DNA from: an uncultured Holophagales bacterium
GTDB taxonomy: Bacteria > Acidobacteriota > Thermoanaerobaculia > Multivoradales > UBA5704
NCBI GenBank assembly: GCA_963741305.1
Contig: CAVUHL010000002.1
Location: 56,607 to 120,606, forward strand
Length of the DNA: 64,000 bases
Direction: 5' to 3'
The notes beneath the pieces are model-generated. The model saw only the letters and a list, made by a program, of their open reading frames with translations. It did no database searches and was not told where the DNA came from. Positions within the stretch are counted from its first letter, which is position 1; every line of letters begins with the position of its first letter. Below are positions 36,084 to 64,000 of the stretch, one piece after another. Position numbers and translations under genes: made by a program.

Positions 36084-36159
36084 GTCCCCATCGTCTAGTG
36101 GACTAGGACTCTGCCCTTTCAAGGCAGCAACACGGGTTCGAATCCCGTTGGGGATACCA
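36084..36159 (+). tRNA. tRNA-Glu (anticodon UUC)
   Basis: GTCCCCATCGTCTAGTGGACTAGGACTCTGCCCTTTCAAGGCAGCAACACGGGTTCGAATCCCGTTGGGGATACCA shows a cloverleaf with anticodon loop CTTTCAA, a TTCGAAT T-loop and an encoded CCA. It closely resembles canonical bacterial tRNA-Glu. Confidence 0.9.
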
Positions 36160-36557
36160 ATAGAATCAACGACTTACGTCTCTAGCACGAGCCGTCAAAG
36201 CCCGGCGCACCGAATACGCACCAAATACCGTGTGCGTGCGAGCCCGCGTCCAAGGCCTTGGGGCTCAATGGGGCTCCACCGGTTGGTGGCAGCGGCGCGT
36301 AAGTTCATTCAGGTAAGCCAGCGGAGGAGTTGGGGGTAGTCCAGGCGGTCCGCCCGGGAATTGGCCCTGGGCGGTCGGGAGAGCAACCCCTCTTCCCCGC
36401 GGATGAAGGACGAGCGCGGGTAAGTCGGCGGACAGCGAGTCCCAGTCCGGTCAAAACGAGCCTCCAACCAACGGCGTAAACTACGTAACCGCAGAGGTTT
36501 ACGGGTAATATCTACTACCTCTGCCGTTGGCTTTTTGGACAAAGTTGAGGCTCATTA

Positions 36558-36590
36558 TCCCCCAAATGTCCCCCGATTGTCCCCCGATCA
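36558..36590. repeat. three tandem 11-bp direct repeats (iteron-like)
   Basis: TCCCCCAAATG / TCCCCCGATTG / TCCCCCGATCA, 36 nt beyond the XRE gene stop. They share the octamer TCCCCCGA with the CRISPR repeat core. Confidence 0.5.
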
Positions 36591-36625
36591 TTAGGCGTTA
36601 GGGCGCGTCACCTGCCGGACCGCTC

Positions 36626-36982
36626 TCATGGCCTGCTCGAGCTGCTCAATCGGCTCTCCGTCTCGATCTGGCGCTTCTCGACGCGGCGGATCGCCTCCCA
36701 GAGCGACTCGATCACCTCGTCGGAAGGCCCCCGAGCTGCCATGGGCTGCGGCGCAACGGCACCCAAGGCGCCCGCCAGATCCGCCACGGTGGCCCCGTAA
36801 CCCCTAAGCACTTGGCCGAGGTTCCCTAGTGTGGGGCGGGTGCTCTCGTTCTCCCAGCGCGACAGTTGCCCCTTGTCCATCGTCAGGGCCTTGGCCGCTT
36901 CGGTCTGCGTGAAGAAGCCGGCCCGCTCTCGCAGACGAGCCAGCGCCTTGACTGCTTGCGACACTGCCGATCCACCAAACAA
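36626..36982 (-). CDS. XRE-family helix-turn-helix transcriptional regulator
   Basis: 118-aa ORF (TTG start) with the HTH pattern FTQTEAAKALTMDKGQLSRWENE. The start codon is 21 nt from the trailer-end repeat of array 1, on the same strand. Confidence 0.7.
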   Translation of the reverse strand: MFGGSAVSQAVKALARLRERAGFFTQTEAAKALTMDKGQLSRWENESTRPTLGNLGQVLRGYGATVADLAGALGAVAPQPMAARGPSDEVIESLWEAIRRVEKRQIETESRLSSSSRP

Positions 36983-37003
36983 GTAACTGAACGCCGGCAG
37001 AAT

Positions 37004-39001: not shown

Positions 39002-39245
39002 TCCTGCCCCTCCAACCCCCTGAAAAGAAAGCACTTAAGACCGCCAATCCGCTAACCTCCCTCCACCTGACTCCCACGACTGCGTTCCGAGGTTTGACCG
39101 CTGAGGCATCTGGAACACCTATCTGCCTCATTCTGTTCATCTTAATCCACTTTCCTCCGCTTCCGCTAACCTCCCCCCATTTTTTGCCTCTTGGGAGGTT
39201 AGCGGCGTCGCCGATGTAGGTGAAGTAAACTAGTTGTCAAGGAAC
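39002..39245 (-). promoter_or_regulatory. CRISPR leader 1 (copy of a triplicated ~240-bp leader module)
   Basis: Alignable with 49871-50110 and 62942-63185. Shared blocks: CCGCTAACCTC (39049-39059 and 39163-39173), its inverted copy (39195-39205) forming a 12-bp hairpin, CGACTGCGTTCCG, and a TTGACA on the minus strand at 39235-39240. Confidence 0.75.
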
Positions 39246-39423
39246 CCGAGGACTGCGGAAAATGACGAGCTCACGCCCGGTGGCTTCACTTCCTTTAACT
39301 TCCTCACTATTACTGACAGAATTTGCTCCTATCCTTCCGCACCCAGTCTTGACGTTTGATTATGCGGCAGACCACCCGCATTAGGGAAGACACCATCCGC
39401 GGCAGTTTGGTCAGGGCCGGCCG

Positions 39424-40408
39424 CTAGCCGCACCAAGCGTAAAACGCCGACGCCTGACCTGTCATCACCATCTCCTTGACGGCATCAACCTGACTCCGAA
39501 GCCTCTCCCGCCAGATGGGCGTGCCCGTGCCCTCGCTCTCTGTGCGGAGTTGCTCCTCGTAGAGCGACAGGTAGCGCTTCAACGCCTCAGTGCTCAGTCT
39601 GAGCCCGGTCTCCCCGCCTTCGAAGTCCTCCGGCGCCAGTTGACGGAGGTTCAAGAGGCGGAGTGTCAGCCGGTCGATCATCGGCTGGCGAAAAACCTCG
39701 ACGACATCCAGCGCGAGGGAGCTGCGGCCATAGCGCAGACCGTGCAGAAAGCCTACCGCCGGATCGAATCCCCGCGCTTCCAGCAGGGCCCCGATCTCGT
39801 TGCCAAGGAGCACGTAGCCGAGGCTGAGGAGGGAATTCGCCGGGTCTGTCGAGGGATGCTTCTTCCGGCCGGGAAAGGGCACGCTCTTCAGCATCCGGCC
39901 GAACTGCCGGTAGTAGACCGCGGCAGCGGCACCTTCCATCCCCTGCGCGACCTCGACAGATTCCGCAGTGGCGACCTTCTCAATCAGCTCCCGAATCCGC
40001 GCCGGTGAATCCTCTTCCAAGATCCCCGGATGGTTTCGCTGGTGACGCGCCAGGAGGCGTTGTTGAGCGGTGAGCTTGGCGCTGATGACGCTCCGGCTGA
40101 AGGCGAGCCGAAACTCCGGGTCCCGCCAGCGGTCAAACTGTGCGAGACGGAGAAACACGTTCCGGGACTGGCCGGCCACCAACGAACCCCGCAGCCGGCC
40201 CCGCGAGGTCAGGAAGGAAACATCGATCCCCTGATCCAGAAGAAGCGCCAAAGCCTGGCTCGAAGAATTGGACCGAGCCCAGCACGACGAGCCGTTCCAG
40301 ATCGAAGAGCCGGAGGTCGCCGGCCTTCGTGTCTCCCTGCCAGATCTCCAACCGCTCTCCCTTGCGGCGGACCTGGGTGCCCGGTGTCATCAGGTAAACT
40401 ACGCTCAC
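39424..40408 (-). CDS. cas1: CRISPR-associated endonuclease Cas1, frame broken once
   Basis: ORF 40133..40408 (MSVVYLMTPGTQVRRKGERLEIW...) continues in ORF 39424..40251 (LLLDQGIDVSFLTSRGRLRG...NSLLSLGYVLLGNEIGALLEARGFDPAVGFLHGLRYGRSSLALDVVEVFRQPMIDR). The frame switch is near 40260. Confidence 0.9.
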
Positions 40409-40411
40409 TGC

Positions 40412-43168
40412 TCAGACCTCGATCACGAACTCCCAACCCTCCCCCTCACCTCTCCGGACCCGCCGAAGAACTCCGAGCGAAAGCTGCAAGGTCTCGCATT
40501 TCTCGTTGTCAAAGAGAGTTGCCAGCTCGGATTGGAGCCGTTCGAGGGCCGCTTCGATGCCTCGCCGGTGGCGCTTGAGCTCCGCGATCTTGCCGACCTT
40601 CTCCTCCGCCGCTCGCCGTTGAGTGTCCGCCTCGGAGGCGGCTTCATCCCGGCTTGCCGCCGGGCGCGCGGGTGACGCGCGAAACACCGGCACTTCGGAG
40701 ACTCGCAGGGCGTAGAGTACCGGCGTCGGATACGCCCGGCCTCTGAGATCGAACTGGCACTTGCAGGTGCCCACCGCCGCCGCTTCCGGATGAAGCTCGC
40801 GGAGCTTCGGGCAGGAGATTGGCCACGGTGGCAAGCGCTCGATCTGCCGGCCCGTGACCTCGGCCCGGTAGTTGTAAGTGTGCGAGATAATGGCGTGCAA
40901 GGCGCTTCGACCTTCCTCCCCCAGATGTCCCAGTGCGCAAAGGAGCGACCATCGTTCGCGATGATTGAGATAGGAGGTCTGACGCGACTTCTTCGCAAGG
41001 TAGCCGAGGACATGGCACCCCTCGAGCACCTTCTGTGCCCGCGGACCGATCGAGTCAGCCGCCTTCTGCTGCGCCGATTCGGTCCCTGGTCCCGGTGCGG
41101 CGGCACAGATCGTGGCGGCCGAGACCCGCGGCAGCGACCTGATGGTCTCCACAGGATCTGAAAGCTCCTGGCCCAGCTCGTCGAGCAACGCACAGCGCCG
41201 GCCCGTCCGCGAATGGACTCCCAGCGGCAGCTTGACCAGAGGTCCGATCATGTCGGGCCGAAGCCGGTCCCGATTGGGAAACTCTTCGATTCGGACTCCT
41301 TCGGGCAGCGGACCGATCGCCTGCACGACATCCAGCAGCCAACGCCGGAGTTGATGGCACGGCACCGGCTCCTCCAAGCGCAGCCAGAGGTGATAGCCCT
41401 TGTGGCCGCTGAGCTCGAGGAGCGTCGAGCCGCCGCGCCGCGAGATCTCGCCCCGAAGCTTGAGAGCCGCCGCCAGCGCACGCCCAAGGAGAGAGCCCAC
41501 TTCCGTAGGGCGCTCATCGATCACTCGTTTCTCCAGGTCTACGTCCAGGACGCCCAATAGAGCGGTGTCTCCAGTGCGAACCAGGGGCAGCGCCAAGGTC
41601 TTCTCTCCCCGCAGATGCGCCCTCCAGTCTTTCTCGTCCATGGGCCGATGGACTGGCACGAAAGCGCGATGGCCCGAACGGTCCACCGTCTCCACAGCGT
41701 GGACACCCTCTCGGCCTTGAAACCAGTCCTGCAACAGCCGAACATCCGACTCCGAGATCGTCTCGCCGCCTGCGGCCGAAGCGGGCTCCGGCTCGGCGAC
41801 ATACCCCGGACGCACTGCGGCCAAGCGGCTGGCGAGATCGTACCTGCCGAGCTCCGCCACCGCTTCGCTCAAGGCTACGAGCCGCTCGGTCTGCGAGCCT
41901 ACGAGCCGCCGCGCCACTGCTCCCAACTCTTCGGGCCCCACTCTCAGCAGGCGCGACCAGCCCTCCGTCTCCGCCTGATGGCTCCGCGAGCCGCCACAGA
42001 CCGCCGCCAACTCGAGCCAGCTTTGCTCCTCACACCCGCAGGCGCTCCAGGCCTCCGCCAGCGCGAATCCAAGCGTGGAAGCAACAGGACTCGAAATTTT
42101 CCACCGTGCGTCCGCCAGACGCTGAGCTACCTCTCGGGAAGCCGTCTCATCTCCGGAGCGTAACAAGGCGAGAATTCCAACCGGTGAACCCATCCAGCAC
42201 TCCGGGTGCCGGCCGAAGTAGTTCGTCCAACCTCGATACAGGGCATCGATCTCCGCGCCCTCCGGCTCCGCCGAGCCAGCGATCTCCTCCAGCCGAAACC
42301 TGAGAGCCTCCACGGCTTTCACAGCAGGCCCCCGCCCTGTCGGCCCGAAGTGATAGCCCAGGAACACGAATCCGTCTTCGGCCCGGCAAATACGGGTCTT
42401 CTCTGCGTTCAAGGTCAAACCGAGGGGCGAGAGGAGCGCAACGATTTGCTCGTGCGCCGCCCGCACCTCGTCCTCGCGAGCGGCGAGAACCAGGAGGTCG
42501 TCACAATAGCGGACATACCTCTCGTGCTCCTTCTCGATGCTGGCGTCCAGCTCCCTGAGATACAGGTTTCCGAGGAGGGGAGAGAGCGGCGATCCCTGGG
42601 CAATGCCGGTGATCATTTCGCTCACTTGATCGTGATCGAAGATGCGGCACCGCAGCACGCGATCCAAGAAGGTAAGCCCTTCCGGGTCAGTGAAGGGCTT
42701 CAGCTGGCGCCGGAGCACCTCCGGCTGAATCGTGTCGAAAAAGCTCTTGACGTCCGCCCGCAACACCCAGGCTGCGCCCTGCTCCACCCAGCGGCCCACG
42801 TCATCCGCCGCCGCCCGCGCCGACGAACCCTTGCGGAACGCTCGGCAGGCGGCCGAGAGAGTGGGCTCCACCCTGGGCGACAAAAGGTCCGTGATCGCCC
42901 TCAGCACCACCCGGTCGCGCACCGCAGGCACCACCAACGCCCGCTCCGAAGCAGCCAGGAAGGCCGGCCGAATCCGCAACACCGGAAGGGACCGATAGCT
43001 CCCGGAGCCGATCTCCTGCGTGAGCTGCTCCAACTCGCCCTCGAGCCGGGAACCGAAAGCTTCCACCGATACCCGATCGATCCCTGCCACTCCCCGCTTG
43101 GCTGCAACGCTCTCCCAGGCACGGCGTAACGTAGTGAGCGCAACGAGATCTTGCAGGAATCCCATCAC
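40412..43168 (-). CDS. reverse transcriptase fused to archaeo-eukaryotic primase-polymerase (RT-PrimPol), CRISPR adaptation-associated
   Basis: Uninterrupted 918-aa ORF between cas2 and cas1. RT blocks: GIDRVS, VPAVRDRVVLRA, FRKGSS, LRADVKSFFDTI, QGSPLSPLLGNLYL, YCDD (42497-42508), LNAEKT, FLGYHF. AEP motifs: LDVDLE (DxD at 41537-41545), SGHKGYHLWL (41381-41410), VKLPLGVHSRTG. These are followed by a PriCT-like helical/Cys-His segment and a coiled-coil tail. Confidence 0.85.
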   Translation of the reverse strand: MMGFLQDLVALTTLRRAWESVAAKRGVAGIDRVSVEAFGSRLEGELEQLTQEIGSGSYRSLPVLRIRPAFLAASERALVVPAVRDRVVLRAITDLLSPRVEPTLSAACRAFRKGSSARAAADDVGRWVEQGAAWVLRADVKSFFDTIQPEVLRRQLKPFTDPEGLTFLDRVLRCRIFDHDQVSEMITGIAQGSPLSPLLGNLYLRELDASIEKEHERYVRYCDDLLVLAAREDEVRAAHEQIVALLSPLGLTLNAEKTRICRAEDGFVFLGYHFGPTGRGPAVKAVEALRFRLEEIAGSAEPEGAEIDALYRGWTNYFGRHPECWMGSPVGILALLRSGDETASREVAQRLADARWKISSPVASTLGFALAEAWSACGCEEQSWLELAAVCGGSRSHQAETEGWSRLLRVGPEELGAVARRLVGSQTERLVALSEAVAELGRYDLASRLAAVRPGYVAEPEPASAAGGETISESDVRLLQDWFQGREGVHAVETVDRSGHRAFVPVHRPMDEKDWRAHLRGEKTLALPLVRTGDTALLGVLDVDLEKRVIDERPTEVGSLLGRALAAALKLRGEISRRGGSTLLELSGHKGYHLWLRLEEPVPCHQLRRWLLDVVQAIGPLPEGVRIEEFPNRDRLRPDMIGPLVKLPLGVHSRTGRRCALLDELGQELSDPVETIRSLPRVSAATICAAAPGPGTESAQQKAADSIGPRAQKVLEGCHVLGYLAKKSRQTSYLNHRERWSLLCALGHLGEEGRSALHAIISHTYNYRAEVTGRQIERLPPWPISCPKLRELHPEAAAVGTCKCQFDLRGRAYPTPVLYALRVSEVPVFRASPARPAASRDEAASEADTQRRAAEEKVGKIAELKRHRRGIEAALERLQSELATLFDNEKCETLQLSLGVLRRVRRGEGEGWEFVIEV

Positions 43169-43177
43169 CGATCCTCC

Positions 43178-43453
43178 TCACAAAATGCGAACGGGTTCCT
43201 GATCAGAGAGCATGCTCCGCCCATAGACATCGACCCGGACCGCGCAGGAGGCGCACAGGTAGTACACCCGGAGGCTGTCGGTCTCCGAGTCGATATGCCG
43301 GAGGGCCCGCTGGATCGACTTCTCCAAGACCTCGGGCGGCAGGTGCCCCTCGAAAACGCTCCGTTGGACGCGGGTGAGCACCATCTCCAGAAGATCGGCG
43401 ACCTTCTGCCGGCCTCGATCGCTGGAGATGTCGTAGGTCACCAACACTTTCAT
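43178..43453 (-). CDS. cas2: CRISPR-associated endoribonuclease Cas2
   Basis: The internal ATG 43453 of ORF 43178..43513 gives MKVLVTYDISSDRGRQKVADLLEMVLTRVQRSVFEGHL...DSLRVYYLC, the Cas2 ferredoxin-fold signature. Confidence 0.9.
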   Translation of the reverse strand: MKVLVTYDISSDRGRQKVADLLEMVLTRVQRSVFEGHLPPEVLEKSIQRALRHIDSETDSLRVYYLCASCAVRVDVYGRSMLSDQEPVRIL

Positions 43454-49600: not shown

Positions 49601-49870
49601 AGTCTCAATCCCCCGAAGGGTCCTGCCAGCTTTGCGAGGTTACCGCAATGTCCACAGCTTCACCTTCGCGGTAACCAATGTCTCAATCCCCCGAAGGGTC
49701 CTGACTGCTTTGCGAGCCTAGTTGGCTGAACCAATCCTTTTGAGGGATACTTGCTGTCTCAATCCCCCGAAGGGTCCTGACTGCTTTGCGAGCAGCAGAA
49801 CAATATGCATATCATAGCGATCCGAAGCTCAATGTCTCAATCCCCCGAAGGGTCCTGACTGCTTTGCACC
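43616..49870 (-). CRISPR. CRISPR array 2: 80 full 37-nt repeats plus 4 degenerate trailer units, 79 spacers (36-44 nt)
   Basis: Plus-strand repeat GTCTCAATCCCCCGAAGGGTCCTGCCAGCTTTGCGAG; full copies run from 43848 to 49834-49870. Degenerate or truncated units lie at 43616, 43668, 43730 (array-1-type) and 43803. Variants occur at 44076 (2-nt deletion) and 46357 (C to T). Hybrid repeats lie at the leader end. Confidence 0.97.
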
Positions 49871-50110
49871 TGCCTCTCTAACCACCTGAAAGGAAAGACT
49901 TTAAGGTGGCCATTCCGCTAACCTCGCTTCGCTGGGCTCCCGCGACTGCGTTCCGCCGCTTGGCCACCGGATGCCGCAAGTCTCTATCTGACTTCATTCT
50001 ACTCATCTTAACCCAATTTCTTCGCTTTCCGCTAACCTCCCCCCGTTTTGGGCCCTTTCGGAGGTTAGCGCCACTCCCCGGTCTGGGAGAAGTAAATCAG
50101 TTGTCAAAGA
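49871..50110 (-). promoter_or_regulatory. CRISPR leader 2
   Basis: Same module as leaders 1 and 3: CCGCTAACCTC at 49915-49925 and 50029-50039, the inverted copy near 50060-50070, and a minus-strand TTGACA at 50102-50107. It overlaps the last codons of the cas6 frame. Confidence 0.75.
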
Positions 50111-52890: not shown

Positions 52891-53404
52891 TACGAGCCCC
52901 CTTCCACGGCGCGGTAGCGGACGTAGCGGACAGCGCCTGCCTGGACGTATTCCCTATAATCAGGAACGCGTATCGGGGAGAGCCGGGATCGAGCCCCTCG
53001 TAGCGCAACGGGTCGGGGATACGCTCCTCATACCAGGTTGCGGTGCCTTCCAAGGCTTCGCCCCAGAGACGGGAGCGGCGGTCGCGTTGCACCCAGCCGG
53101 GCCCGCCGATGTGTTGCGCCGATCCCTCGGGAGCCGTGGGGATCACGGCCAGCTCGACGCCGCGGTCTCCCAACCAATGCAGGTCGCGCTCGTCGTTGAA
53201 GACCCTCAGCTCCTGAAGCGTGGGGCGACGCGCGATCTCCTCCCAACGAGCCCGCGGGGCGCGGAGAAGGCACGCTTCGGTGGCCGTCGTGTAGAACCCC
53301 CAGGTCTCCTCGGACGGCAGCTTTGCTAGGAAGTCTTCGAGGTTCGCCAGCGGATGGATGGTGATTTCTTCGCTCGGTTGGATGAGCTTTCCCTCACTAC
53401 TCAT
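52890..53404 (-). CDS. small type III-D accessory subunit, Csx19-like by position and size, frame broken once
   Basis: ORF 52832..53404 (MSSEGKLIQPSEE...) reaches, after a frame switch near 52960, a TAA that overlaps the next gene's ATG (TAATG at 52888-52892). The assignment comes from synteny (between Cas7x2 and Cas7-insertion) and its ~170-aa size, not from a recognised motif. Confidence 0.35.
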
Positions 53405-54974: not shown

Positions 54975-55489
54975 GGCTGTGCCTGCTTTCGCGCCTCGTC
55001 CATCCACCGCCGCGCCAGCGCGCGGAGGAGGACGCGTGCGATGTCCGTCAAGAACCGCTTTTCGGCTTCGAGATCCCGTGGCAACGCGCCCCGGAGGGCA
55101 TGCCTCACCTCCGTCACCGCTGCCCTGACTGCCGCTCCAGATCCTCAAGCCGTAGAGGCCCTGCTCCCCCTCCTCCACCTCACCCAGGCGGTCCAGGGCC
55201 TCGGCGATAGGCTCCCAAAGGCCCTGCTCTCCTTCGCGGTCCTTGCGGTTCTGCTTTTCGCGATCCTGGTCTTGCGGTTCTGCCGGATCCGGCCAGCCAT
55301 GCCCCGCAGCTCGGCCGCCATGGCGTCGCGGTCTTTCATCGTGGCGATGCGGAGGAGCAGGGCGGCGGCCGGGCGGAGGTTCTCCTCCCGCGGCCGGAAG
55401 GAGTCCCAGGGCGGAGGCATGTCCACGCCGGACTGCTGTTCCAGCACGGCCACGAGCCGGCGTTCGAGCACGTCGCGCGCGGCGATCAT
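54971..55489 (-). CDS. cas11: Cas11-like small helical subunit, two compensating frame switches
   Basis: ATG 55489 overlaps the upstream stop (ATGA) and the TGA at 54971-54973 overlaps the downstream ATG (ATGA). Helical, charged sequence: MIAARDVLERRLVAVLEQQ...EPIAEALDRLGEVEEGEQGLYGL...RFLTDIARVLLRALARRWMDEARKQAQP. The middle part reads sensibly only in a second frame. Confidence 0.45.
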
Positions 55490-57366
55490 CGGGATTCCCT
55501 CCTCGGCTCGGGAGCTGCCGTCTCTTGAATCAAGATCACGCCGAAGCCCTCGTTGCGGCGCAGGCCGATGCCTTCCCGCGCCGCTCGTTGCAGGGTCTTC
55601 AGCTCCTCTTCGGCCCCGTTCTCCGGCCGGACCAGCAGAAAAGACGAGCCGGCGGCCACCGCCAGTTGGTCGGACTTCGGCAGGCGATGCGTGCTGTTCC
55701 ATCCGGCCAGCAGGTGGAAAGAGCTGAAGGCTTCATCGAACTTCGGCCGGGCGAGACCCAGGTCGCCCGGCACCAGGCTCTCGCGGAAACGGAGGTGTTC
55801 GTCCGCCACGAGGGCCGGCGTCACCAGGTCGATGCGGAGATACCCGGAAGCCGGCCACTCGTCCGGCACCGGGGCCGCGTTCGGATAGAGGCCGGTTCCG
55901 CCGGGCCGGCCGGCGAAGGCCGAGACCCGGCAGTCCAGATAGCCCAGGGCGCCCTTGCGCCGCCCGACGCGGAGCGGAAAGCTGTCGCTCACGGCAAGCC
56001 CGAGACCGGCGAGGAGGCGCTCCGTGTCGTCCGCGCTCCCGGCTTCGATGAACCCCCGGAGGCGCGTCCCTTCGGGCAGGGCCTCGTAGGCGAAGAGCCC
56101 GTCCTCTCGAACCGTCTGGCTCTCGGGTTGGATCCGGTTGTGAGGGCTCAGCGCTAAGCGCGCAGCCACGTCTTTGCCCGCCCCCTCGAAGCGCGGCCCC
56201 CAGGGGATCAGGCGGGCTCCGCAGTGCTGACAGCGCTCGATCTCAGGCTCCAGCAGCAGGTCCACGAAGCCATGACCGAAGGATTGTTTCGGACCTGGAC
56301 GGATCTTGCAGGTGTGCTTGGCCAGCGGCACCGGCCGGCTGGCCGCCTGTGCGGAGGGCGGATAAAGGAATCCGAAACGCACGCCTCCTGAAAGGAAGCA
56401 GCGCAGGAAGTCCTCCCCGGCCCGGTCTCCCCGCCAGCGGGCTGCCAGCGCGCCGCGAAGGGCGCTTCCGGCCACGAACGGCAGGCCGGCGATCAGGTTG
56501 CCCGCTTCCGGGAGGCCTCCCATCACCACCTCGCCCACCACCGTGGCGTCGATCTGGAGGAGCTTCGAGGCTCTACCAGAACCTGCCTCTTGCGATGTAG
56601 GGGAGGAGTTCCCCTTTTCCCGGACGGGGGCAGGCACGTCCCGACAGAGAGGTCCAGGGCAAGGGCCTTCACGGCGTCCTCCCAGGATGCGAAGGCGGGA
56701 GCGAGGATCCACCTGGTCGAAGCGGATACGACAGGCGCCGAGCCCCCGCCGGCGGTGGCCTCCGATCTCGCGGATGAAGCGGAGCGCCGCGACGAGTAAG
56801 CTCACCTCCTGCCGCGCCAGCCCCGGCTCGATGTCGGTCGAGCCCGCGAGCTCGAATCCTTCCAGCGATTCTTCCAACGTGAACAGATGCTCGTCGGCCG
56901 CCCGGCCGCTCCTGAAATCGATGGCCGTGCGGGGATGGGGACGCGCCAGCAGTCCATTCACTTTGACCGCCTCCCGGGCCAGCTCTTCCCGGTCCGCCTG
57001 CTGCCAGACCGGGCCGGCCCCTCCCAGAAGCACGAGCCGCGCCGGACTCCACGCCACCAGGGATTCGCGATGGGGCGAGCCCGTGAGAGCACAGAACGGA
57101 CAGAGCCCCTCCCGGCCCAGCCCGCAGAGACTGCCGAGGGAGCCGTCCCGGCGGGTGAGCGTGCCGTCGCAAACGTCGATGGCGAGCGCCTCCGCCAGCT
57201 TCCGGACCGCATCGCGCACCAGCCCGCGGATCGTGGAGCCGGGCACGAAGGGAAGACCCAGGGCGTCGCGCCGTACCAGGCTGTCCAGATAGCGGCCCGC
57301 GGCCTCGCCGCTGCCGATATGCCAGCTCCGGTCGAAGTGGATGGTGTAGTCGATCCGCACGGTCAC
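55486..57366 (-). CDS. fusion of Cas7-like and Csx10/Cas5-like RAMP domains
   Basis: Uninterrupted 626-aa ORF. The N-terminal domain has HIGSGEAAGRYLDSLVRRDALGLPFVPGSTIRGLVRDA and GGHRRRGLGACRI. The C-terminal domain has LPFVAGSALRGALAARW, CQHCG-type Cys motifs and GIGLRRNEGFGVILI. Confidence 0.65.
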   Translation of the reverse strand: MTVRIDYTIHFDRSWHIGSGEAAGRYLDSLVRRDALGLPFVPGSTIRGLVRDAVRKLAEALAIDVCDGTLTRRDGSLGSLCGLGREGLCPFCALTGSPHRESLVAWSPARLVLLGGAGPVWQQADREELAREAVKVNGLLARPHPRTAIDFRSGRAADEHLFTLEESLEGFELAGSTDIEPGLARQEVSLLVAALRFIREIGGHRRRGLGACRIRFDQVDPRSRLRILGGRREGPCPGPLCRDVPAPVREKGNSSPTSQEAGSGRASKLLQIDATVVGEVVMGGLPEAGNLIAGLPFVAGSALRGALAARWRGDRAGEDFLRCFLSGGVRFGFLYPPSAQAASRPVPLAKHTCKIRPGPKQSFGHGFVDLLLEPEIERCQHCGARLIPWGPRFEGAGKDVAARLALSPHNRIQPESQTVREDGLFAYEALPEGTRLRGFIEAGSADDTERLLAGLGLAVSDSFPLRVGRRKGALGYLDCRVSAFAGRPGGTGLYPNAAPVPDEWPASGYLRIDLVTPALVADEHLRFRESLVPGDLGLARPKFDEAFSSFHLLAGWNSTHRLPKSDQLAVAAGSSFLLVRPENGAEEELKTLQRAAREGIGLRRNEGFGVILIQETAAPEPRRESR

Positions 57367-58918: not shown

Positions 58919-60646
58919 TTACGCCGGTTTGAGCCGGCCCATCAGATCTTTGTACGACAGCGGCTGGCAGTCCGCCGGGATGCGGCCGCCGGCGGCCTCC
59001 AGCAACCGGCCTTCCCATTCGTCCAGGCGCTCCCGCGCCGCCGGATCGAGATCCGGCACGTCCTCCCGGAACCGGGCCAGCACCACCGAAACGAGCGTCT
59101 GTAGAACCGTGCGGTAGTACTGGAGCAGACGGTACGCCTCCTCCTTCGGCACCGGCGCCAGCCAATGCACGGCCTTATGGCGTAGATCCGAGAAGTCCCA
59201 GAGTTTCGCCGTACCGCCCTTGCCCTTGAACAAGCCGCCGTCCAACTCCTTGGAGAGAGCCGGCGCCGCGAGCACTACCGCACACGTCTGGGATTTCGCA
59301 GCCTCCGCGTCCTCTGATCCTTCTAATCCGTCCGGGGAGATCTCCAGGCTCTTCCCGCGGAGCACCTTGAGCGCCTGGGCTGAGGATCTCTCGCAGATGT
59401 CGAGGGCTTGGGAACGAAGCTCTCCGATCCGTTCGTCGTTCAGCTCTCCAGGTGAGGAGACCTGCAACCGCTCGGGGTGCCGGCCGACGAAGACGTACAG
59501 GGCGAAGGAGATCACTGCCTCCAGAGTGCCGTACAGACGCAGGAACACATCGCGCGGGCGTTCCTGGATCTGCGCCTCGCCGTTCCACACCAGGACGTCC
59601 AGGAAATAGGCGAGGCCGGTTACCGGGTCCGAGAAGACAGCCCCCGGCGAGAGCGCTTGGATGATTGCTCTTGACGGATCATTCGTGCGCGGCCATACCT
59701 TGCCGAGGCATTCCACGGTGGCGGCCACCGGAACGCCAGGCAAGGCCGCGATAGCGGCCTCGGCGTAAAAACCCTCGCTCCACAGGCCATACGAGCTGCA
59801 CACCCGCTGCACGGCATCGAACCGCGCCGCCATCGGAAGCCCCGCGAGCAGTTTCTTCACCTCGGGACTCGCCGCCATCTCGCGCAGCTCACCCGCCAGT
59901 CTTTCAGCCTCGCGAAATCGGCTCCGGTCGAACTCCTCTTCGAGCCGAACTTGCTCGCGAAGCTTGAAAAGACTGTAAGGATGCTGGAGCCGGCCCGGCC
60001 GCGAGGTCCCCGGAACCGGCCTTCGCAGGATCGAATCGTCGTATTGGTCGAAATCCACATAGCTCGATTCGAGCTCCAGGAATCCTGCCGCGAGAAACGC
60101 TCCGGCGATCATCGACTTCTTGGCCCCCGTGATATCCAAGACGATCCTCGCCACGGAATCCTGGCGCTCCTCGACGATCTCCCGCACGGTGAGGAAGAGG
60201 TCCGCCGCATCGTCTCTGACCTGGCGCTTCTCGACTTGGCCGTATGCGGGCACGCCGAGGAGGGTGCGGTACTCGTTCCAGAGCTTCTCCAGCACTCGGA
60301 GAGGCTCCTCCTCAAGATTCTGCTCGATCAGCAGGATCACCTCCACCTCTGCATGGTGGGCCACTGCCAGGAGGAGCGGCTCGGGAGAGTGGCCCACGCA
60401 GAGGATGAGCAGATCCGGCCCGCCGATCTCTTGGCGGCGTCTTGCCCCTCGCTCGCGGACTTCCCTCAACTCGGCGGAGAAAATCGGCGGTGAGCCGGGC
60501 TCCCCGTACCACAACTCATGCTCGATCCCCCTCAGCTTCTCCGCGACGGCCCGCGCGCCCAGGCGGTCCAGAAGCGCCTGGTAGCGATCGACCAGGGGAC
60601 TCTCGGACTCCTCGGACCGGCTCCCGGAGAACTGCGCCTCGTTCAT
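58919..60646 (-). CDS. CARF domain protein with C-terminal HEPN-like Rx4H motif (Csm6/Csx1-class ancillary effector)
   Basis: ORF 58919..61042; the likely start is ATG 60646, preceded by GGGGAG. The CARF pattern is DLLILCVGHSPEPLLLAV...VLDITGAKKSMIAGAFLAAGF. RHKAVH lies at 59165-59182 near the C-terminus. Confidence 0.65.
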   Translation of the reverse strand: MNEAQFSGSRSEESESPLVDRYQALLDRLGARAVAEKLRGIEHELWYGEPGSPPIFSAELREVRERGARRRQEIGGPDLLILCVGHSPEPLLLAVAHHAEVEVILLIEQNLEEEPLRVLEKLWNEYRTLLGVPAYGQVEKRQVRDDAADLFLTVREIVEERQDSVARIVLDITGAKKSMIAGAFLAAGFLELESSYVDFDQYDDSILRRPVPGTSRPGRLQHPYSLFKLREQVRLEEEFDRSRFREAERLAGELREMAASPEVKKLLAGLPMAARFDAVQRVCSSYGLWSEGFYAEAAIAALPGVPVAATVECLGKVWPRTNDPSRAIIQALSPGAVFSDPVTGLAYFLDVLVWNGEAQIQERPRDVFLRLYGTLEAVISFALYVFVGRHPERLQVSSPGELNDERIGELRSQALDICERSSAQALKVLRGKSLEISPDGLEGSEDAEAAKSQTCAVVLAAPALSKELDGGLFKGKGGTAKLWDFSDLRHKAVHWLAPVPKEEAYRLLQYYRTVLQTLVSVVLARFREDVPDLDPAARERLDEWEGRLLEAAGGRIPADCQPLSYKDLMGRLKPA

Positions 60647-61146
60647 ACCTGCTCCCCTTCGCCCATGCGGATCAATCCAGCATGAGATTGCGGAATTGCG
60701 AGAAATCTTCTCTCTATCCAACCTCCCTGTCAAGAGCAGCGGCACGCGGACGGTCGGACGGGTCGCCCGCATAAGGGTGAAGACACGGGTTCGCGGCAAA
60801 CTGGTAAGAGACAGACCTGCCCACAGTAGGCATCGGAGGGCCCGCCGACGTGCGAATGCGCCGGAGCGTTTGAAGTTCCGGAAGTCGCCTGGTCGCTTCG
60901 GGTCCCGGTGGTGACCGGCAGCACCCCGGAGGTCCCACCTCATTCGCGCAACGGAGCCTCTCTCGAATGTACCGGAAGTACCAGCGTGCCTCTGCCGGGG
61001 GAAGGCCCCGAATGGGGCAAACCCTCCGCCCCGTCTGAGCAAGCTTCTCGGCCCATGGGGGAAGCTCGAAATGCCGCCAGAGCCGGGTCCATAGGCTAGC
61101 CTCCGGGGGCGCCAGCGTGGGCGAGTGAAGTCAGGAGCGCATCCGG

Positions 61147-62941
61147 AGACTCAATCCCCCGAAGGGTCCTGCCCTAATTGCGGCTAGGAGCCTGCGCGCC
61201 AGAAAACCGGATAAGCGGGCGAAGGTACTTGCCGGCCCCTGACGCACGAGCCGCAGGAGAACGAGCGCTATGAACGCGGGGCCGGTCGAGCTGCCGCCGG
61301 ACCTCCGTCCGGCTCGCCCGCGACCTCCTGCCGCAATTCCGCTCAGCAACTCCAGCGACTGGCCGCATCGACCTCCAGCCGTGCCGCGCTTGGACTGAAG
61401 CGCCGCAGATAGCCGGGATTGCGCGGACAGCTCGGCCCCGTTCGCAACTTGGCTCAGCAAATCCTCGGCAGCCGCTCAGCTCAAGGAGCCTACGACTTGA
61501 AAAGGGGCCGCCGCAGGAAAGAAGTGCGGTGCCCCATATAGATCGCATGTGGTGAAGGAGACTTCCGACATATGCCGCTTTTGCGGTAGTTGGGGTACTT
61601 TTCTGGCGCGCCGGCTCCGGAGTTTGCCGTACGCTGGAATGGCGCCCGCATCGCAGAAGAAATGTAATGCCCCGAAGGGGTCCTGCCCTAATTGCGGCGA
61701 GCTAAGGCCCAAACAATGAACCGTCCGAGAACAGCTTCGTCTCAATCCCCCGAAGGGTCCTGTCCTAATTGCGGCCGAAAGAAGGTCTGGCTCACGCGAC
61801 TATAGTAGTTACGTCTCAATCCCCCGAAGGGTCCTGTCCTAATTGCGGCCTGGGAGATCAACGGCTTCATCGTTCACTACAATCACAATGTCTCAATCCC
61901 CCGAAGGGTCCTGTCCTAATTGCGGCAAGGTCGTGGTGGATGTTCCACCCCCCATTGGAGGAGGTTGGAAGTCTCAATCCCCCGAAGGGTCCTGTCCTAA
62001 CCCGGCCAAGCCGGAACCAAACAGGGAGGACGCATGCTACACTCTGGGTTCGGCAGGATCTGGCATCTTCACCTGTCAAGCACAGGAACAGCGAAAACAC
62101 CGATCCAAGCATTAGAAGCCTTTTTACGCCAACCGTCCTGCTGCCCACGAAGACCCTTCCCGTGATAGTGACTACGGGTAAAGGATTTTTTATGCTTCCT
62201 TTCCAAAATTCTCGCCATTTTGGCAAAGATCTCACTCTTAAGGGACTAATTGCGGCTCCAGTGGGAAGTGACGGGGGCCCCTTCGACGGACCTATCGATG
62301 TCTCAATCCCCCGAAGGGTCCTGTCCTAATTGCGGCGACATCGGCCCGACTGATGCAGGTAAGCGAGCGGTGGTACCGTCTCAATCCCCCGAAGGGTCCT
62401 GTCCTAATTGCGGCCCAATAGTTCAGGCTCAAAGCCGATGTTGCTGATTTTTAGTCTCAATCCCCCGAAGGGTCCTGTCCTAATTGCGGCGGCCCTAGGC
62501 AGATAACCGTCAGATGGACTTGTGAGGGTCTCAATCCCCCGAAGGGTCCTGTCCTAATTGCGGCGGTAGAATCCCGAACCTTTTCAAGGGAAGATATTCA
62601 GATCCGTCTCAATCCCCCGAAGGGTCCTGTCCTAATTGCGGCGTGGGACTCGCCCACCGTGTTCGTCACAATGGTGAACAATGTCTCAATCCCCCGAAGG
62701 GTCCTGTCCTAATTGCGGCTTCTTGATGTAGGCGGTGGCTCCCGCCTCGAGCCCCCGGGGTCTCAATCCCCCGAAGGGTCCTGTCCTAATTGCGGCGTTG
62801 AGTACGACGTGGCGGTGCCGGCAGACGGAATGACGTCTCAATCCCCCGAAGGGTCCTGTCCTAATTGCGGCACCAACTGCCACTCCAGATGCAGGGACCG
62901 GCTCGTCTCAATCCCCCGAAGGGTCCTGTCCTAATTGCGGC
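61147..62941 (-). CRISPR. CRISPR array 3: 13 full repeats (one split by an insertion) plus 2 degenerate distal units
   Basis: Plus-strand repeat GTCTCAATCCCCCGAAGGGTCCTGTCCTAATTGCGGC; full copies run from 61739 to 62905-62941, with spacers of 33-44 nt. A degenerate copy sits at 61664-61698. An orphan degenerate copy at 61147-61183 is separated from it by ~480 bp of non-repeat sequence. Confidence 0.93.
62001..62249. mobile_element. 249-bp insertion inside a CRISPR repeat, flanked by a CTAA direct duplication (MITE-like)
   Basis: The repeat starting at 61971 is intact for 30 nt (..CCTGTCCTAA) and resumes as CTAA-TTGCGGC at 62246-62256. The insert is AT-richer and has subterminal hairpins (CCGGC-CAA-GCCGG at 62002-62014; GCCA-TTT-TGGC at 62214-62224). 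I see no clear terminal inverted repeats and no ORF. Confidence 0.6.
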
Positions 62942-63185
62942 ACCTGCCTCTCTAACCACTTGAAGGGAAAGCACTTAGAGGTGGCCATTCCGCTAACCTC
63001 GCTTCATCGGGCTCTCGCGACTGCGTTCCGGCACCCGGTCACGTGGGCGCCTGGATTACCTATCTCCTTCATTCTGCGGATCTTACCCCAATTTCCCCGG
63101 CTTCCGCTAACCTCCCCCCATTTTGGGGCCTTCCAGAGGTTAGCGCTACCTCCGGAGAGAAGGACGTAAATTAGTTTTCAAAGAA
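62942..63185 (-). promoter_or_regulatory. CRISPR leader 3
   Basis: Same module as leaders 1 and 2: CCGCTAACCTC at 62990-63000 and 63104-63114, and an inverted copy near 63135-63145. The TTGACA position reads TTGAAA here. Confidence 0.75.
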
Positions 63186-63189
63186 CCTC

Positions 63190-64000
63190 GGGACACCAAA
63201 AGGTGAAAAACTTTTGCCCCGGTGGTTTCGCTTTCTGAAATTCTCTCGCCTTCCGGCCACCGGTCCTCAGTTTCTTGCCCGCTGCCAGTATCTCACCTCC
63301 CTTAGAGGTTGGGAAGAACCGAGGCGCTTCGGGTCCTTGCTGCGAGATTCGGCCAGAGCGGCGAAAGACAGGCAGAAGCTTCCCCATCGACGGCCCTGGC
63401 TCACCCGCAGGTGACTGAGCCTCTCCACGGACATTCGCCCTCCTCAATGAAGACACGACTGCGGGCCGATTGGTAAGTGCGACCAGGTCAACACGGTCCG
63501 AGCCGTACCTTCCCGTCGGCCGCCTGTTTCTCCGATCGTAGCCAAGCCCGTCGCCCGTCAAGGCCAAGCCTCCCCGGCACAAGGCGACCAAAGCATTCCT
63601 CTACCACCCTCGGGAGTCCCACCACGAGGCCGCCGCTTCGGCCCTCTTTCGCTCTTCAGTCTCGCCGCTCAGGAACGGCCGTCAAGGCAGACCCCTTCGG
63701 GCGGGCCCTCAAAGACCCGTCCTGGACGGCCGTCCCTTCGAGCGGCGACGGCGCTACGCGCCTCCTCCCGGGAGCCTCGAAGGGCCGGAGCGGCGGCCCC
63801 GCACCCGGCGCAACGCCGGAAGCGCTCATCCCAGAAAGGACAGGCTCACCATGATCGTGAGGAATCTCTCGACGGCCCGCCGGCAAGACACCGCGAAACG
63901 CACGGCGGGGACCCGCCCTGCCACCGTCGACGACGTGACCGATGAGCCCCCCGGGAGACCCCACGTTCTACCTCGGGACTCATCATCCCGACTGGCTGGC
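63190..64000 (-). pseudogene. second cas6-like gene or remnant, frame-broken, running off the window
   Basis: 63190-63330 aligns at nucleotide level with the 3' end of cas6 (GPEAPRFFP..GEILAAGKKLRTGG vs GPEAARFFP..GEILHLGKNPTAGCG). Upstream frames contain CAGCG and GRVFEGPP, reminiscent of the Cys-rich CPYGVLF region of the first cas6. Confidence 0.3.

What the first reader, a model, noticed from the sequence alone, without database searches (positions are those of the whole stretch)
36084..64000. 27.5-kb co-directional type III CRISPR-Cas supercluster (3 arrays, about 118 spacers) starting right after tRNA-Glu
From 36.6 kb to the window edge every supported element is on the minus strand. 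The order is: cas6-like remnant, leader3, array3; then CARF-HEPN, cas10, cas7:cas5, cas11, cas7x2, csx19-like, cas7-insertion, cas6, leader2, array2; then cas2, RT:PrimPol, cas1, leader1, array1, XRE regulator. Effector genes are chained by start/stop overlaps: GTGA at 57363-57366, ATGA at 55486-55489 and 54971-54974, an 8-nt overlap at 53397-53404, and TAATG at 52888-52892. The locus begins about 0.45 kb after a tRNA-Glu, a classical island insertion site, and clearly continues past 64000. Three arrays served by one adaptation module and one effector module, with array 2 alone carrying 79 spacers, indicates a very active or long-lived system.
Basis: partly seen in the sequence, partly recalled or inferred. 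Interest (0 to 1): 0.7.

Follow-up and report, generated by a model that had tools for sequence, protein, structure and literature searches.

The report
Type III-D CRISPR locus with RT-primase
This is a real but fairly ordinary bacterial CRISPR immune locus (subtype III-D, three spacer arrays, a reverse-transcriptase/primase fusion for capturing new spacers), probably from an acidobacterium; many of its genes look broken, most likely because of sequencing errors.

Summary
From 36.6 kb to about 63.3 kb everything identifiable is on the minus strand.

The effector operon runs CARF-HEPN, cas10 (no HD domain, GGDD intact), cas7:csx10 fusion, cas11, cas7-2x, csx19, cas7-insertion, cas6. The adaptation operon is cas2, RT-PrimPol (918 aa, the known CART-CAPP class), cas1. 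All five start/stop overlaps are exact. Profile searches and intact orthologous operons place it in subtype III-D. It is closest to the Synechocystis III-Dv architecture, but cas11 is not fused.

Four caveats:
- Seven of the eleven cas genes carry about 12 frameshifts and one in-frame stop. A fadB-like housekeeping gene in the same window is also split, so these are probably assembly indels, not decay.
- Array 3 is interrupted by 292 bp. Beyond its leader and a 65-nt cas6 remnant (to 63336) nothing is recognisable, so "continues past 64000" is unsupported.
- There is no evidence for a tRNA-Glu island.
- The "cas7-insertion" gene has lost its insertion domain.

Verdict: a new member of a known kind, of modest interest.

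The parts
36084..36159 (+). tRNA-Glu (UUC). It is adjacent to the locus but not shown to belong to it.
   Evidence: ARAGORN; Rfam RF00005, 61 bits
36626..36982 (-). XRE/HTH_31 regulator next to the trailer of array 1. It is not conserved in related loci.
   Evidence: Pfam HTH_31 E=4e-10; no tblastn hit in L001-L009
37004..39001 (-). CRISPR array 1: 27 repeats (GTCGCAAAGCAGTCAGGACCCTTCGGGGGATTGAGAC in crRNA sense) and 26 spacers.
39002..39290 (-). Leader 1, homologous to leaders 2 and 3 and to the L005 and L003 leaders. It contains the CGCTAACCTCC...GGAGGTTAGCG inverted repeat and a second GAGGTTAGCGGAA copy.
   Evidence: alignments; blastn
39424..40408 (-). cas1, with one frameshift at about 40264.
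   Evidence: TIGR00287 scores 228 bits (cutoff 71.7) after frame correction. Orthologues are 86% identical in two frames.
40412..43168 (-). RT-PrimPol fusion (CART-CAPP), 918 aa, intact. It has a group II intron-like RT with YCDD, an AEP domain with DVD and SGHKGYH motifs, and a Cys/His-rich C-terminal domain.
   Evidence: NF040561, 260 bits (cutoff 200), and TIGR04416; PDB 6ar1 and 7nqd; motif conservation in 34 homologues
43178..43453 (-). cas2, intact.
   Evidence: TIGR01573, 62 bits (cutoff 24.5); tblastn
43616..43839 (-). Four degenerate repeats at the trailer (oldest) end of array 2.
43848..49870 (-). CRISPR array 2: 80 repeats and 79 spacers. The two-spacer unit 44490-44606 is duplicated at 44644-44760.
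49871..50160 (-). Leader 2.
50097..51130 (-). cas6, with three indels: two compensating ones at about 50470 and 50408, and one at about 50312. Homology to orthologues ends at 50184.
   Evidence: PADLOC Cas6 7e-17; tblastn against L003, L007 and L008 cas6; frames
51146..52890 (-). TIGR03986-family Cas7 ('cas7-insertion'). It has one frameshift at about 52560 and lacks the roughly 235-aa insertion domain of its orthologues.
   Evidence: TIGR03986, 239 bits (cutoff 161); alignment
52890..53404 (-). csx19, with one frameshift at about 52958.
   Evidence: TIGR03984 scores 39.5 bits (cutoff 35) after correction
53397..54974 (-). cas7-2x (double Cas7 fusion), with frameshifts at about 54315 and 53655 and an in-frame TAG at 53881-53883.
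   Evidence: Csx7 TIGR02581, 137 bits (cutoff 108); PADLOC Cas7_IIId; the orthologue hits PDB 8s9t_D Cas7-2x
54971..55489 (-). cas11 (small subunit). A double compensating frameshift creates the stop at 55145.
   Evidence: There is no profile hit. It is orthologous to the 163-176-aa genes at the same position in L007 and L008.
55486..57366 (-). cas7:cas5(csx10) fusion, 626 aa, intact.
   Evidence: PADLOC Cas7_IIId 1e-23 and Cas5_IIId 7.5e-23; Pfam RAMPs and Cmr3; PDB 8s9t_A Cas7-Cas5-Cas11; 30 homologues of about 620 aa
57363..58884 (-). cas10, about 505 aa, with no HD domain and an intact GGDD motif. It has two frameshifts, at about 58345 and 58128.
   Evidence: PADLOC Cas10 1e-23 and Cas10d; Pfam Cas10-Cmr2_palm2; tblastn in three frames
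58919..60646 (-). CARF-HEPN (Csx1/Csm6-like) effector, 575 aa, intact, with the R-x4-H motif RHKAVH.
   Evidence: PADLOC CARF_HEPN 1.6e-39 and Csx1/Csm6 3.6e-33; TIGR02710; motif; start
61148..61184 (-). Lone repeat copy with one mismatch.
61739..62941 (-). CRISPR array 3 (repeat GCCGCAATTAGGACAGGACCCTTCGGGGGATTGAGAC). It has 9 repeats, then a 292-bp non-repeat gap (62008-62299), then 4 repeats, giving 11 spacers.
62942..63336 (-). Leader 3 (62942-63233, 77% identical to leader 2) preceded by a cas6 3'-end remnant (63272-63336).
   Evidence: blastn and tblastn; alignment; L007 cas6 residues 279-300 hit

Best explanation
This is a chromosomal subtype III-D CRISPR-Cas system from a high-GC bacterium, probably an acidobacterium.

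Expression and effector (inferred from orthology):
- The three arrays are transcribed on the minus strand from homologous leaders.
- Cas6 cuts the repeats, leaving the 8-nt AUUGAGAC tag.
- crRNAs load into a fixed-stoichiometry effector made of Cas10, Cas7-Csx10, Cas11, Cas7-2x, Csx19 and a TIGR03986 Cas7. This is inferred from the solved Synechocystis III-Dv complex.

Interference (inferred):
- Binding of a complementary transcript leads to RNA cleavage by the Cas7 domains.
- Cas10 has no HD nuclease but has an intact GGDD cyclase site, so it is expected to make cyclic oligoadenylate.
- That signal would switch on the CARF-HEPN RNase encoded just upstream.

Adaptation (inferred):
- New spacers are installed at the leader-repeat junctions by Cas1-Cas2.
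- They are helped by an RT-PrimPol fusion (CART-CAPP) that can make DNA prespacers from RNA or DNA.

Status of the claims:
- Shown here: the anatomy, the family assignments, orthology to intact operons and the motif conservation.
- Inferred: every activity.

The roughly 12 frameshifts and one stop in seven cas genes are most likely consensus indel errors of the assembly, so the system is probably intact in the organism.
For: Arrays, orientation and leaders:
- Arrays and repeat orientation.
- Degenerate repeats sit only at the leader-distal end of array 2.
- The leaders are homologous over about 290 nt.

Family hits above curated cutoffs:
- Cas1: 228 bits against a cutoff of 71.7.
- Cas2: 62 against 24.5.
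- CAPP type A1: 260 against 200.
- TIGR03986: 239 against 161.
- Csx7: 137 against 108.
- Csx19: 39.5 against 35.

Other profile and structure hits:
- PADLOC III-D-specific Cas5_IIId, Cas7_IIId, Cas10, CARF_HEPN, Cas6, RT and PrimPol.
- The nearest solved structures are the Synechocystis III-Dv subunits in 8s9t and the CAPP structure 7nqd.

Intact orthologous operons:
- L007 and L008 carry uninterrupted operons with the same gene order. L005 shares the order over the part that was fetched, but several of its own genes are broken.
- The RT-PrimPol and the Cas7-Csx10 fusion have homologues on contigs of identical length in seven cases.
- For one of these, L008, co-residence on one contig was read directly.

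Motifs:
- GGDD in Cas10.
- RHKAVH in the CARF-HEPN protein.
- YCDD, DxD and SGxxGxH invariant in 34 RT-PrimPol homologues.

Literature:
- III-Dv composition and mechanism: PMC11026444.
- CAPP and CART-CAPP: PMC8211822 and PMC10415136.

Assembly-error reading:
- A fadB-like gene at 12636-14768 is split across three frames, with continuous Pfam profile coordinates.
- A kinase-TPR gene is probably split as well.
- The relative L005 (record name contig_33302) is broken in different genes.
- Frame-corrected proteins regain full-length family matches.
Against: - As written, seven cas genes cannot be translated. One disruption is a true in-frame TAG at 53881-53883, not an indel.
- The Cas7-insertion protein lacks its insertion domain, which in III-Dv holds the crRNA 3' seed (PMC11026444).
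- The first repeat of array 2 lacks 3 nt at the integration junction.
- No protospacer was found, either with array 2 against 50,697 phage records or with three of the newest spacers against IMG/VR.
- cas11 and cas6 get no NCBIfam or Pfam hit.
- There is no expression or activity data.
Confidence: 0.8

Rival explanations
1. The locus is a genuinely decaying type III-D system. The arrays persist, but cas1, cas6, cas10, cas11, cas7-2x, csx19 and the TIGR03986 cas7 are pseudogenes, so neither interference nor adaptation works any more.
For: - There are about 12 frameshifts and one in-frame TAG in 16 kb of cas coding sequence.
- The insertion domain has been lost by a clean 235-aa deletion.
- The first repeat of array 2 is truncated by 3 nt.
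- Array 3 is interrupted, and there is a lone repeat.
Against: - Housekeeping genes in the same window are split at a comparable density.
- The four largest genes are intact: RT-PrimPol at 2.8 kb, cas7:csx10 at 1.9 kb, CARF-HEPN at 1.7 kb, and cas2.
- Repeats are almost perfectly uniform across 123 copies.
- Only one disruption is a substitution. Neutral decay should add many substitutions, yet Cas1 is still 86% identical to its L005 orthologue with no gaps.
- L005, another assembly with a long-read-style contig name, is broken in different genes.
Confidence: 0.15
2. The cluster is a mobile genomic island that integrated at tRNA-Glu and extends well beyond 64000, perhaps with a second cas module serving array 3.
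For: - The locus starts 467 nt after tRNA-Glu.
- Related loci sit in unrelated genomic contexts, which is compatible with horizontal transfer.
- Array 3 has its own repeat variant and a cas6 remnant upstream, which could be a trace of a second module.
Against: - There is no integrase or recombinase between the tRNA and the locus.
- No copy of the tRNA 3' end occurs elsewhere in the window beyond a chance-level 1-mismatch 12-mer inside cas1.
- GC content of the locus (0.58-0.70) is like that of the flank.
- No tRNA lies within the fetched flanks (at most 10 kb on each side of the matched gene) in five related loci.
- Positions 63340-64000 have no cas or repeat similarity.
Confidence: 0.12

Closest known systems
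Synechocystis sp. PCC 6803 type III-Dv system (PDB 8s9t; PMC11026444)
   Same: - The gene order matches: accessory CARF/HEPN genes, cas10, a cas7-cas5 fusion, cas7-2x, csx19, cas7-insertion, cas6, adaptation genes and an array.
- Cas10 lacks an HD domain and keeps GGDD.
- The best PDB hits of the window's or its orthologues' Cas7-Cas5, Cas10 and Cas7-2x proteins are the III-Dv subunits.
- The repeat ends in a ...TGAAAC/...TGAGAC-type tag.
   Different: - Here cas11 is a separate gene, with an ATGA overlap. It is also separate in L007 and L008, so the triple Cas7-Cas5-Cas11 fusion is absent.
- Sequence similarity is remote (E values from 1e-6 to 1e-17).
- The window's Cas7-insertion protein lacks the insertion domain.
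- The adaptation module carries an RT-PrimPol.
- There are three arrays instead of one.
CART-CAPP fusions (CAPP_A class type 2), e.g. Caloramator australicus CCJ33120 (PMC8211822, PMC10415136)
   Same: - The architecture is the same: an N-terminal group II intron-like RT, then an AEP Prim-Pol domain, then a C-terminal domain.
- The gene lies between cas2 and cas1 of a type III locus.
- NCBIfam NF040561 scores above its cutoff.
- The AEP domain aligns with the Marinitoga CAPP structure 7nqd (E=6e-26).
   Different: - This protein is larger: 918 aa against 713 aa.
- The RT domain's best PDB match is GsI-IIC RT, and it is only weakly similar to the CaCART RT domain 8bgj (E=5e-14).
- The AEP catalytic DxD and His motifs are invariant in 34 clade members. 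By contrast, the PP domains of the two characterised CART-CAPPs were biochemically inactive.
RT-Cas1 systems of type III, e.g. Marinomonas mediterranea Cas6-RT-Cas1 and Vibrio vulnificus III-D RT-Cas1
   Same: A group II intron-like RT is linked to type III adaptation and is expected to allow spacer capture from RNA. RT-Cas1 fusions are the next-best hits of the RT domain (P0047-P0061; PDB 7kft).
   Different: Here the RT is fused to a primase-polymerase, not to Cas1 or Cas6. Cas1 is a separate gene.

Membership tests
CRISPR-Cas subtype III-D | Cas10 large subunit without an HD nuclease domain | tested here: met
   Cas10 is about 505 aa and starts directly with the first palm domain, 34 nt after the CARF-HEPN stop. 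Orthologues are 508 and 513 aa. It hits the PADLOC Cas10 and Cas10d models. The GGDD motif is present.
CRISPR-Cas subtype III-D | Csx10-type Cas5 | tested here: met
   PADLOC Cas5_IIId hits at 7.5e-23 and covers profile positions 18-332 of 343. NCBIfam Csx10 TIGR02674 gives only 54.9 bits against a cutoff of 177, and only over the C-terminal part. The feature is therefore met by the III-D-specific PADLOC model, not by the NCBIfam cutoff.
CRISPR-Cas subtype III-D | Csx19 (all1473 family) | tested here: met
   TIGR03984 scores 39.5 bits, above the cutoff of 35, and covers profile positions 14-166 of 170 after frame correction. The uncorrected sequence scores 32.7 bits.
CRISPR-Cas subtype III-D | Several Cas7 paralogues, including a TIGR03986 Cas7 with a large insertion | tested here: inconclusive
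   The family match is strong: TIGR03986 scores 239 bits against a cutoff of 161. However, the roughly 235-aa insertion present in the L005, L007 and L008 orthologues is missing from the window gene.
Type III-Dv variant (Synechocystis) | Cas7-Cas5-Cas11 triple fusion | tested here: not met
   The Cas7-Csx10 ORF ends at 55486 and cas11 starts at 55489 with an ATGA overlap. The genes are also separate in L007 (621 + 163 aa) and L008 (620 + 176 aa).
Type III-Dv variant (Synechocystis) | Cas7-2x double fusion | tested here: met
   A single 524-aa gene (after frame correction) contains two Csx7-like domains. Orthologues are 549-568 aa. The orthologue hits PDB 8s9t_D Cas7-2x at E=1.4e-17.
CART-CAPP (RT-PrimPol adaptation polymerase) | N-terminal RT with catalytic YxDD, an AEP Prim-Pol domain, and a position next to cas1/cas2 | tested here: met
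   TIGR04416 covers residues 16-322, and the motif RYCDD is present. NF040561 scores 260 bits against a cutoff of 200. PDB 7nqd hits at E=6e-26, with DVD and SGHKGYH aligned to the catalytic motifs. The gene is flanked by cas2 and cas1.
CART-CAPP (RT-PrimPol adaptation polymerase) | Priming, reverse-transcription and spacer-acquisition activity | not testable with these tools
   This needs biochemistry or acquisition assays.
CARF-HEPN (Csx1/Csm6) cOA-activated RNase | A CARF sensor domain plus a HEPN domain with R-x4-H | tested here: met
   PADLOC CARF_HEPN hits at 1.6e-39 over 430 profile positions. Csx1/Csm6 hits at 3.6e-33. The RHKAVH motif lies near the C-terminus. TIGR02710 gives only 32.5 bits, below its cutoff of 83.9.
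tRNA-integrated genomic island | An integrase next to the tRNA, a direct repeat of the tRNA 3' end at the far boundary, and deviating composition | tested here: not met
   No integrase was found. No repeat of the tRNA 3' end occurs in the window. GC content is similar to the flanks. Relatives have no tRNA nearby. The far boundary beyond 64000 could not be examined.

The most novel reading that the evidence does not exclude
The window and its roughly 30-45 metagenomic relatives may form an undescribed III-D lineage. The relatives that carry names are from Thermoanaerobaculia (Acidobacteriota) and Gemmatimonadota. This lineage would be intermediate between III-D1 and III-Dv: Cas7-Csx10 is fused, Cas11 is still free, and Cas7-2x is present. 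It appears to be linked to a roughly 920-aa RT-PrimPol in which both polymerase active sites are under selection. If so, this adaptation enzyme would use two active polymerases, unlike the characterised CART-CAPPs, whose Prim-Pol domain is dead.
Probability: 0.3. Interest if true: 0.45.

Novelty: new member of a known kind. Interest (0 to 1): 0.3.

Why it matters
The locus is a clean natural example of a partly fused type III-D effector with a cOA/CARF-HEPN arm and a CART-CAPP adaptation polymerase. It carries 114 unique spacers and comes from a poorly studied phylum.

The conserved clade around it has intact operons in L007 and L008. That clade could help in two ways:
- It could help order the fusion steps from III-D1 to III-Dv/III-D2 and on to III-E.
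- It offers RT-PrimPol proteins with both catalytic centres conserved, for testing why CAPP domains are kept.

For annotation, the lesson is practical. The window's frameshifts would make a Cas-typing pipeline miss or fragment most genes of the locus.

Tried and rejected
- **Extending the contig.** Look-ups of the window's own RT-PrimPol, with both possible starts and as P0001, found no record. Exact-peptide scans of GTDB genomes gave only two remote hits, L001 and L002. A scan of JGI metagenomes gave none. The region beyond 64000 could therefore not be read.
- **Spacer targets.** Array 2 against 50,697 phage records in distant mode gave no match. Cores of the three newest array-2 spacers against IMG/VR gave no match. 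Spacers against the rest of the window gave only 11-15-nt chance matches.
- **Rfam.** It found only the tRNA and an Acido-Lenti-1 sRNA, and no match to any Rfam family over the repeats.
- **Repeat folding.** The small CCC-UUCG-GGG hairpin is no more stable than in shuffled sequences, so direction rests on other evidence.
- **Promoter scan of leader 2.** It gave only a consensus-level hit inside the first repeat-spacer unit, which I did not use.
- **GC3 frame plot.** It was too noisy to place the frameshifts, so I replaced it with tblastn against orthologues.
- **Programmed frameshifting.** Rejected, because the orthologous operons in L007 and L008 are uninterrupted and L005 is broken in different genes.

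Full report
**Observation**

ARAGORN and Rfam both find a tRNA-Glu(UUC) at 36084-36159 on the + strand. A 24-nt repeat core occurs 123 times with up to three mismatches, always in the same orientation and never on the other strand. A looser search finds 125 copies.

The copies form three arrays:
- Array 1, 37004-39001: 27 repeats, 26 spacers.
- Array 2, 43848-49870: 80 repeats, 79 spacers.
  - One repeat, at 44076, has a 3-nt deletion.
  - Four degenerate repeats lie at 43616-43839.
  - One two-spacer unit is exactly duplicated in tandem.
- Array 3: 9 repeats at 62300-62941 and 4 repeats at 61739-62007, separated by 292 bp that match nothing.
- A lone repeat sits at 61148.

That gives 116 spacers, 114 of them unique, 33-44 nt long.

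**Direction**

Read on the minus strand, the repeat ends in ...GGACCCTTCGGGGGATTGAGAC. This is the type of 3' end that gives the 8-nt crRNA tag; the Synechocystis III-Dv repeat ends ...GGGGACTGAAAC (PMC11026444). Three further observations fit minus-strand transcription:
- The variable part of the repeat is its 5' half, which differs between arrays. The 3' 24 nt are identical in all three.
- Degenerate repeats occur only at the low-coordinate end of array 2.
- About 290 nt on the high-coordinate side of each array are mutually homologous and also homologous to the leaders of related loci.

This is inference from anatomy. No expression data exist.

**Genes**

Profile searches on raw ORF pieces and on frame-corrected proteins support every assignment. 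In minus-strand order:

| Gene | Coordinates | Main evidence |
|---|---|---|
| CARF-HEPN | 60646-58919, 575 aa | PADLOC CARF_HEPN 1.6e-39; HEPN motif RHKAVH |
| cas10 | 58884-57363 | No room for an HD domain; ICGGDDLVV present |
| cas7:csx10 fusion | 57366-55486, 626 aa | PADLOC Cas7_IIId plus Cas5_IIId |
| cas11 | 55489-54971 | No profile hit; orthologous to the small genes at this position in L007 and L008 |
| cas7-2x | 54974-53397 | Csx7, 137 bits (cutoff 108) |
| csx19 | 53404-52890 | TIGR03984, 39.5 bits (cutoff 35) |
| TIGR03986 cas7 | 52890-51146 | 239 bits (cutoff 161) |
| cas6 | 51130-50097 | PADLOC Cas6 7e-17; G-rich loop LHLGKNPTAGCGR |
| cas2 | 43453-43178 | TIGR01573, 62 bits (cutoff 24.5) |
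| RT-PrimPol | 43168-40412, 918 aa | NF040561 "CRISPR-associated primase-polymerase type A1", 260 bits (cutoff 200), plus group II intron RT |
| cas1 | 40408-39424 | TIGR00287, 228 bits (cutoff 71.7) |

Array 2 lies between cas6 and cas2, and array 1 follows cas1. An HTH_31 (XRE) gene at 36982-36626 lies past array 1, but it has no counterpart in any related locus. I therefore do not count it as part of the system.

**Relatives**

The RT-PrimPol has about 45 homologues with the same RT + AEP architecture, at 49-73% identity. The few that carry names are from Thermoanaerobaculia and Gemmatimonadota metagenome-assembled genomes. The Cas7-Csx10 fusion has 30 homologues of about 620 aa.

The two gene families have homologues on contigs of identical length in seven cases (39905, 17134, 32739, 536506, 121888, 44521 and 28792 nt). 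This suggests that the effector variant and the RT-PrimPol travel together. I read co-residence directly only for L008.

Locus by locus:
- L007 (JGI) has an uninterrupted operon: CARF 552 aa, Cas10 508, Cas7-Csx10 621, Cas11 163, Cas7-2x 559, Csx19 179, Cas7-insertion 813, Cas6 315, followed by arrays.
- L008 adds cas2, RT-PrimPol and cas1 directly after cas6.
- L005 is the closest relative, at 78% RT identity. It is collinear with the window and uses the same repeat.
- L003, L005, L006 and L007 also have two or three arrays per locus, so the multi-array layout is a clade feature.

The window has a cas6 3'-end remnant plus leader in front of array 3. L005 has a cas1 3'-end remnant plus leader in front of its cas6-proximal array. 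Leader-array units are evidently copied together with the tail of the upstream gene.

**Broken genes**

I mapped the disruptions by running tblastn with the orthologues against the window and by reading the frames:

| Gene | Disruptions |
|---|---|
| cas1 | 1 frameshift (about 40264) |
| cas6 | 3 indels (about 50470 and 50408, compensating; about 50312) |
| TIGR03986 cas7 | 1 frameshift (about 52560) |
| csx19 | 1 frameshift (about 52958) |
| cas7-2x | 2 frameshifts (about 54315 in a C run; about 53655) and an in-frame TAG at 53881-53883 |
| cas11 | 2 compensating frameshifts |
| cas10 | 2 frameshifts (about 58345 and 58128) |

RT-PrimPol, cas7:csx10, CARF-HEPN and cas2 are intact.

The same problem exists outside the locus. 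A fadB-like gene at 12636-14768 is spread over three frames, and its Pfam profile coordinates continue across the breaks: 3HCDH_N positions 2-33, then 32-164, then the C-terminal domain. A Ser/Thr kinase stops at profile position 201 of 263 and is followed in another frame by its likely TPR tail.

L005 has a record name (contig_33302) that looks like long-read assembler output, and it is broken in different genes: RT-PrimPol and cas6. After frame correction, the window proteins regain full-length matches above the cutoffs.

The simplest reading is consensus indel error, not decay. I give real pseudogenisation about 15%. It cannot be excluded without the reads.

**Real structural peculiarities**

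- The TIGR03986 "cas7-insertion" gene lacks, cleanly and in frame, about 235 residues present in all three closest orthologues. In the III-Dv structure this domain holds the crRNA 3' end (PMC11026444).
- The first repeat of array 2 is 3 nt short at the leader junction.
- The leader-proximal repeats of array 2 alternate between the array-1-like ACTG variant and the CCAG variant. This hints at recombination between arrays.

**Classification and mechanism**

Four features place the locus in subtype III-D: Csx19, a Csx10-type Cas5, a TIGR03986 Cas7 and an HD-less Cas10.

The nearest solved structures are the Synechocystis III-Dv subunits in 8s9t. The TIGR03986-family protein 9wxh is also a top hit; from its length (1235 aa) and family I take it to be the III-D2 Cas7x3, but I did not verify that entry. 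The gene order matches III-Dv (PMC11026444), with one difference: cas11 is a separate gene here and in L007 and L008. The lineage therefore sits between III-D1 and III-Dv.

By analogy, I infer the following:
- The effector is a fixed-composition RNA-targeting complex.
- The GGDD Cas10 signals to the CARF-HEPN RNase through cyclic oligoadenylate.

The RT-PrimPol belongs to the published CART-CAPP class (PMC8211822, PMC10415136), whose RT domains prime and copy both RNA and DNA for prespacer synthesis. In the 34 full-length homologues, the RT YCDD motif and the AEP motifs DxD, SGxxGxH and FPxRD are all invariant. The DxD aligns with the catalytic DID of the active Marinitoga CAPP. By contrast, the Prim-Pol domains of the two characterised CART-CAPPs were inactive (PMC10415136). 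That is the one point with some novelty potential.

**Claims that fail**

- *Island at tRNA-Glu.* Adjacency (467 nt) is real. But there is no integrase, no repeat of the tRNA 3' end in the window and no compositional break. No tRNA lies within the fetched flanks (at most 10 kb on each side of the matched gene) in five related loci.
- *Continuation past 64000.* After leader 3 and a 65-nt cas6 remnant ending at 63336, the last 660 nt match nothing. I could not obtain the rest of the contig.
- *Spacer targets.* None were found. "Very active" therefore rests only on spacer number and diversity.

**Verdict**

It is a new member of known kinds: subtype III-D with a CART-CAPP adaptation module. It comes from a probable acidobacterial metagenome contig with indel errors. 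An Acido-Lenti-1 sRNA at 5474-5519 supports that taxonomic assignment. Interest is modest.

Noticed in passing
window 5474-5519 (+): Rfam finds an Acido-Lenti-1 sRNA (RF01687, 43.7 bits against a gathering score of 37). Together with the Thermoanaerobaculia-named relatives, this suggests an acidobacterial host.
   Followed up: partly
window 12636-14768 (+): A fadB/fadJ-like gene (ECH_1, 3HCDH_N, 3HCDH C) is split over three reading frames, with continuous Pfam profile coordinates. This shows the frameshifts are not confined to the CRISPR locus.
   Followed up: yes
window 31445-34026 (+): A Ser/Thr kinase domain is cut at Pkinase position 201 of 263 and is followed in another frame by a TPR region. 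This is probably one gene with a frameshift near 32400.
   Followed up: partly
window 52208-52249 (inside the TIGR03986 cas7 gene): A clean in-frame absence of about 235 residues, the whole insertion domain, which the orthologues in L005, L007 and L008 all have.
   Followed up: partly
window 49834-49870 and leader-proximal repeats 49377-49834: The first repeat of array 2 lacks 3 nt at the leader junction. The newest repeats alternate between the array-1-like ACTG variant and the array-2 CCAG variant, suggesting exchange between arrays.
   Followed up: no
window leaders 39002-39290, 49871-50160, 62942-63233; L005 6700-6959 and 13724-13983; L003 8768-9027 and 13823-14082: The leaders share a conserved element: the inverted repeat CGCTAACCTCC...GGAGGTTAGCG plus a second GAGGTTAGCGGAA copy about 60 nt before the first repeat. 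It could be a protein-binding site or a leader RNA hairpin.
   Followed up: partly
L005 6513-6718 versus window 39426-39631; window 63272-63336 versus 50227-50291: Leader-array units are preceded by short remnants of the 3' end of cas1 (in L005) or cas6 (in the window). Arrays seem to be duplicated together with the tail of the upstream gene.
   Followed up: partly
window 62008-62299 and 61185-61738: These are 292 bp interrupting array 3 and 554 bp between array 3 and a lone repeat. Neither resembles leaders, cas genes or anything in the related loci.
   Followed up: partly
window 40412-43168 and homologues P0001-P0035: Both the RT (YCDD) and the Prim-Pol (DxD, SGxxGxH, FPxRD) catalytic motifs are invariant in 34 homologues, unlike the biochemically inactive Prim-Pol domains reported for two CART-CAPPs.
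   Followed up: partly
window 6409-7053 (-): A Uma2-family putative restriction endonuclease (Pfam E=1e-36).
   Followed up: no
window 4001-6000, 14001-18000, 22001-26000: These stretches have lower GC (0.54-0.58, against about 0.65 elsewhere) and few long ORFs. I did not examine them.
   Followed up: no
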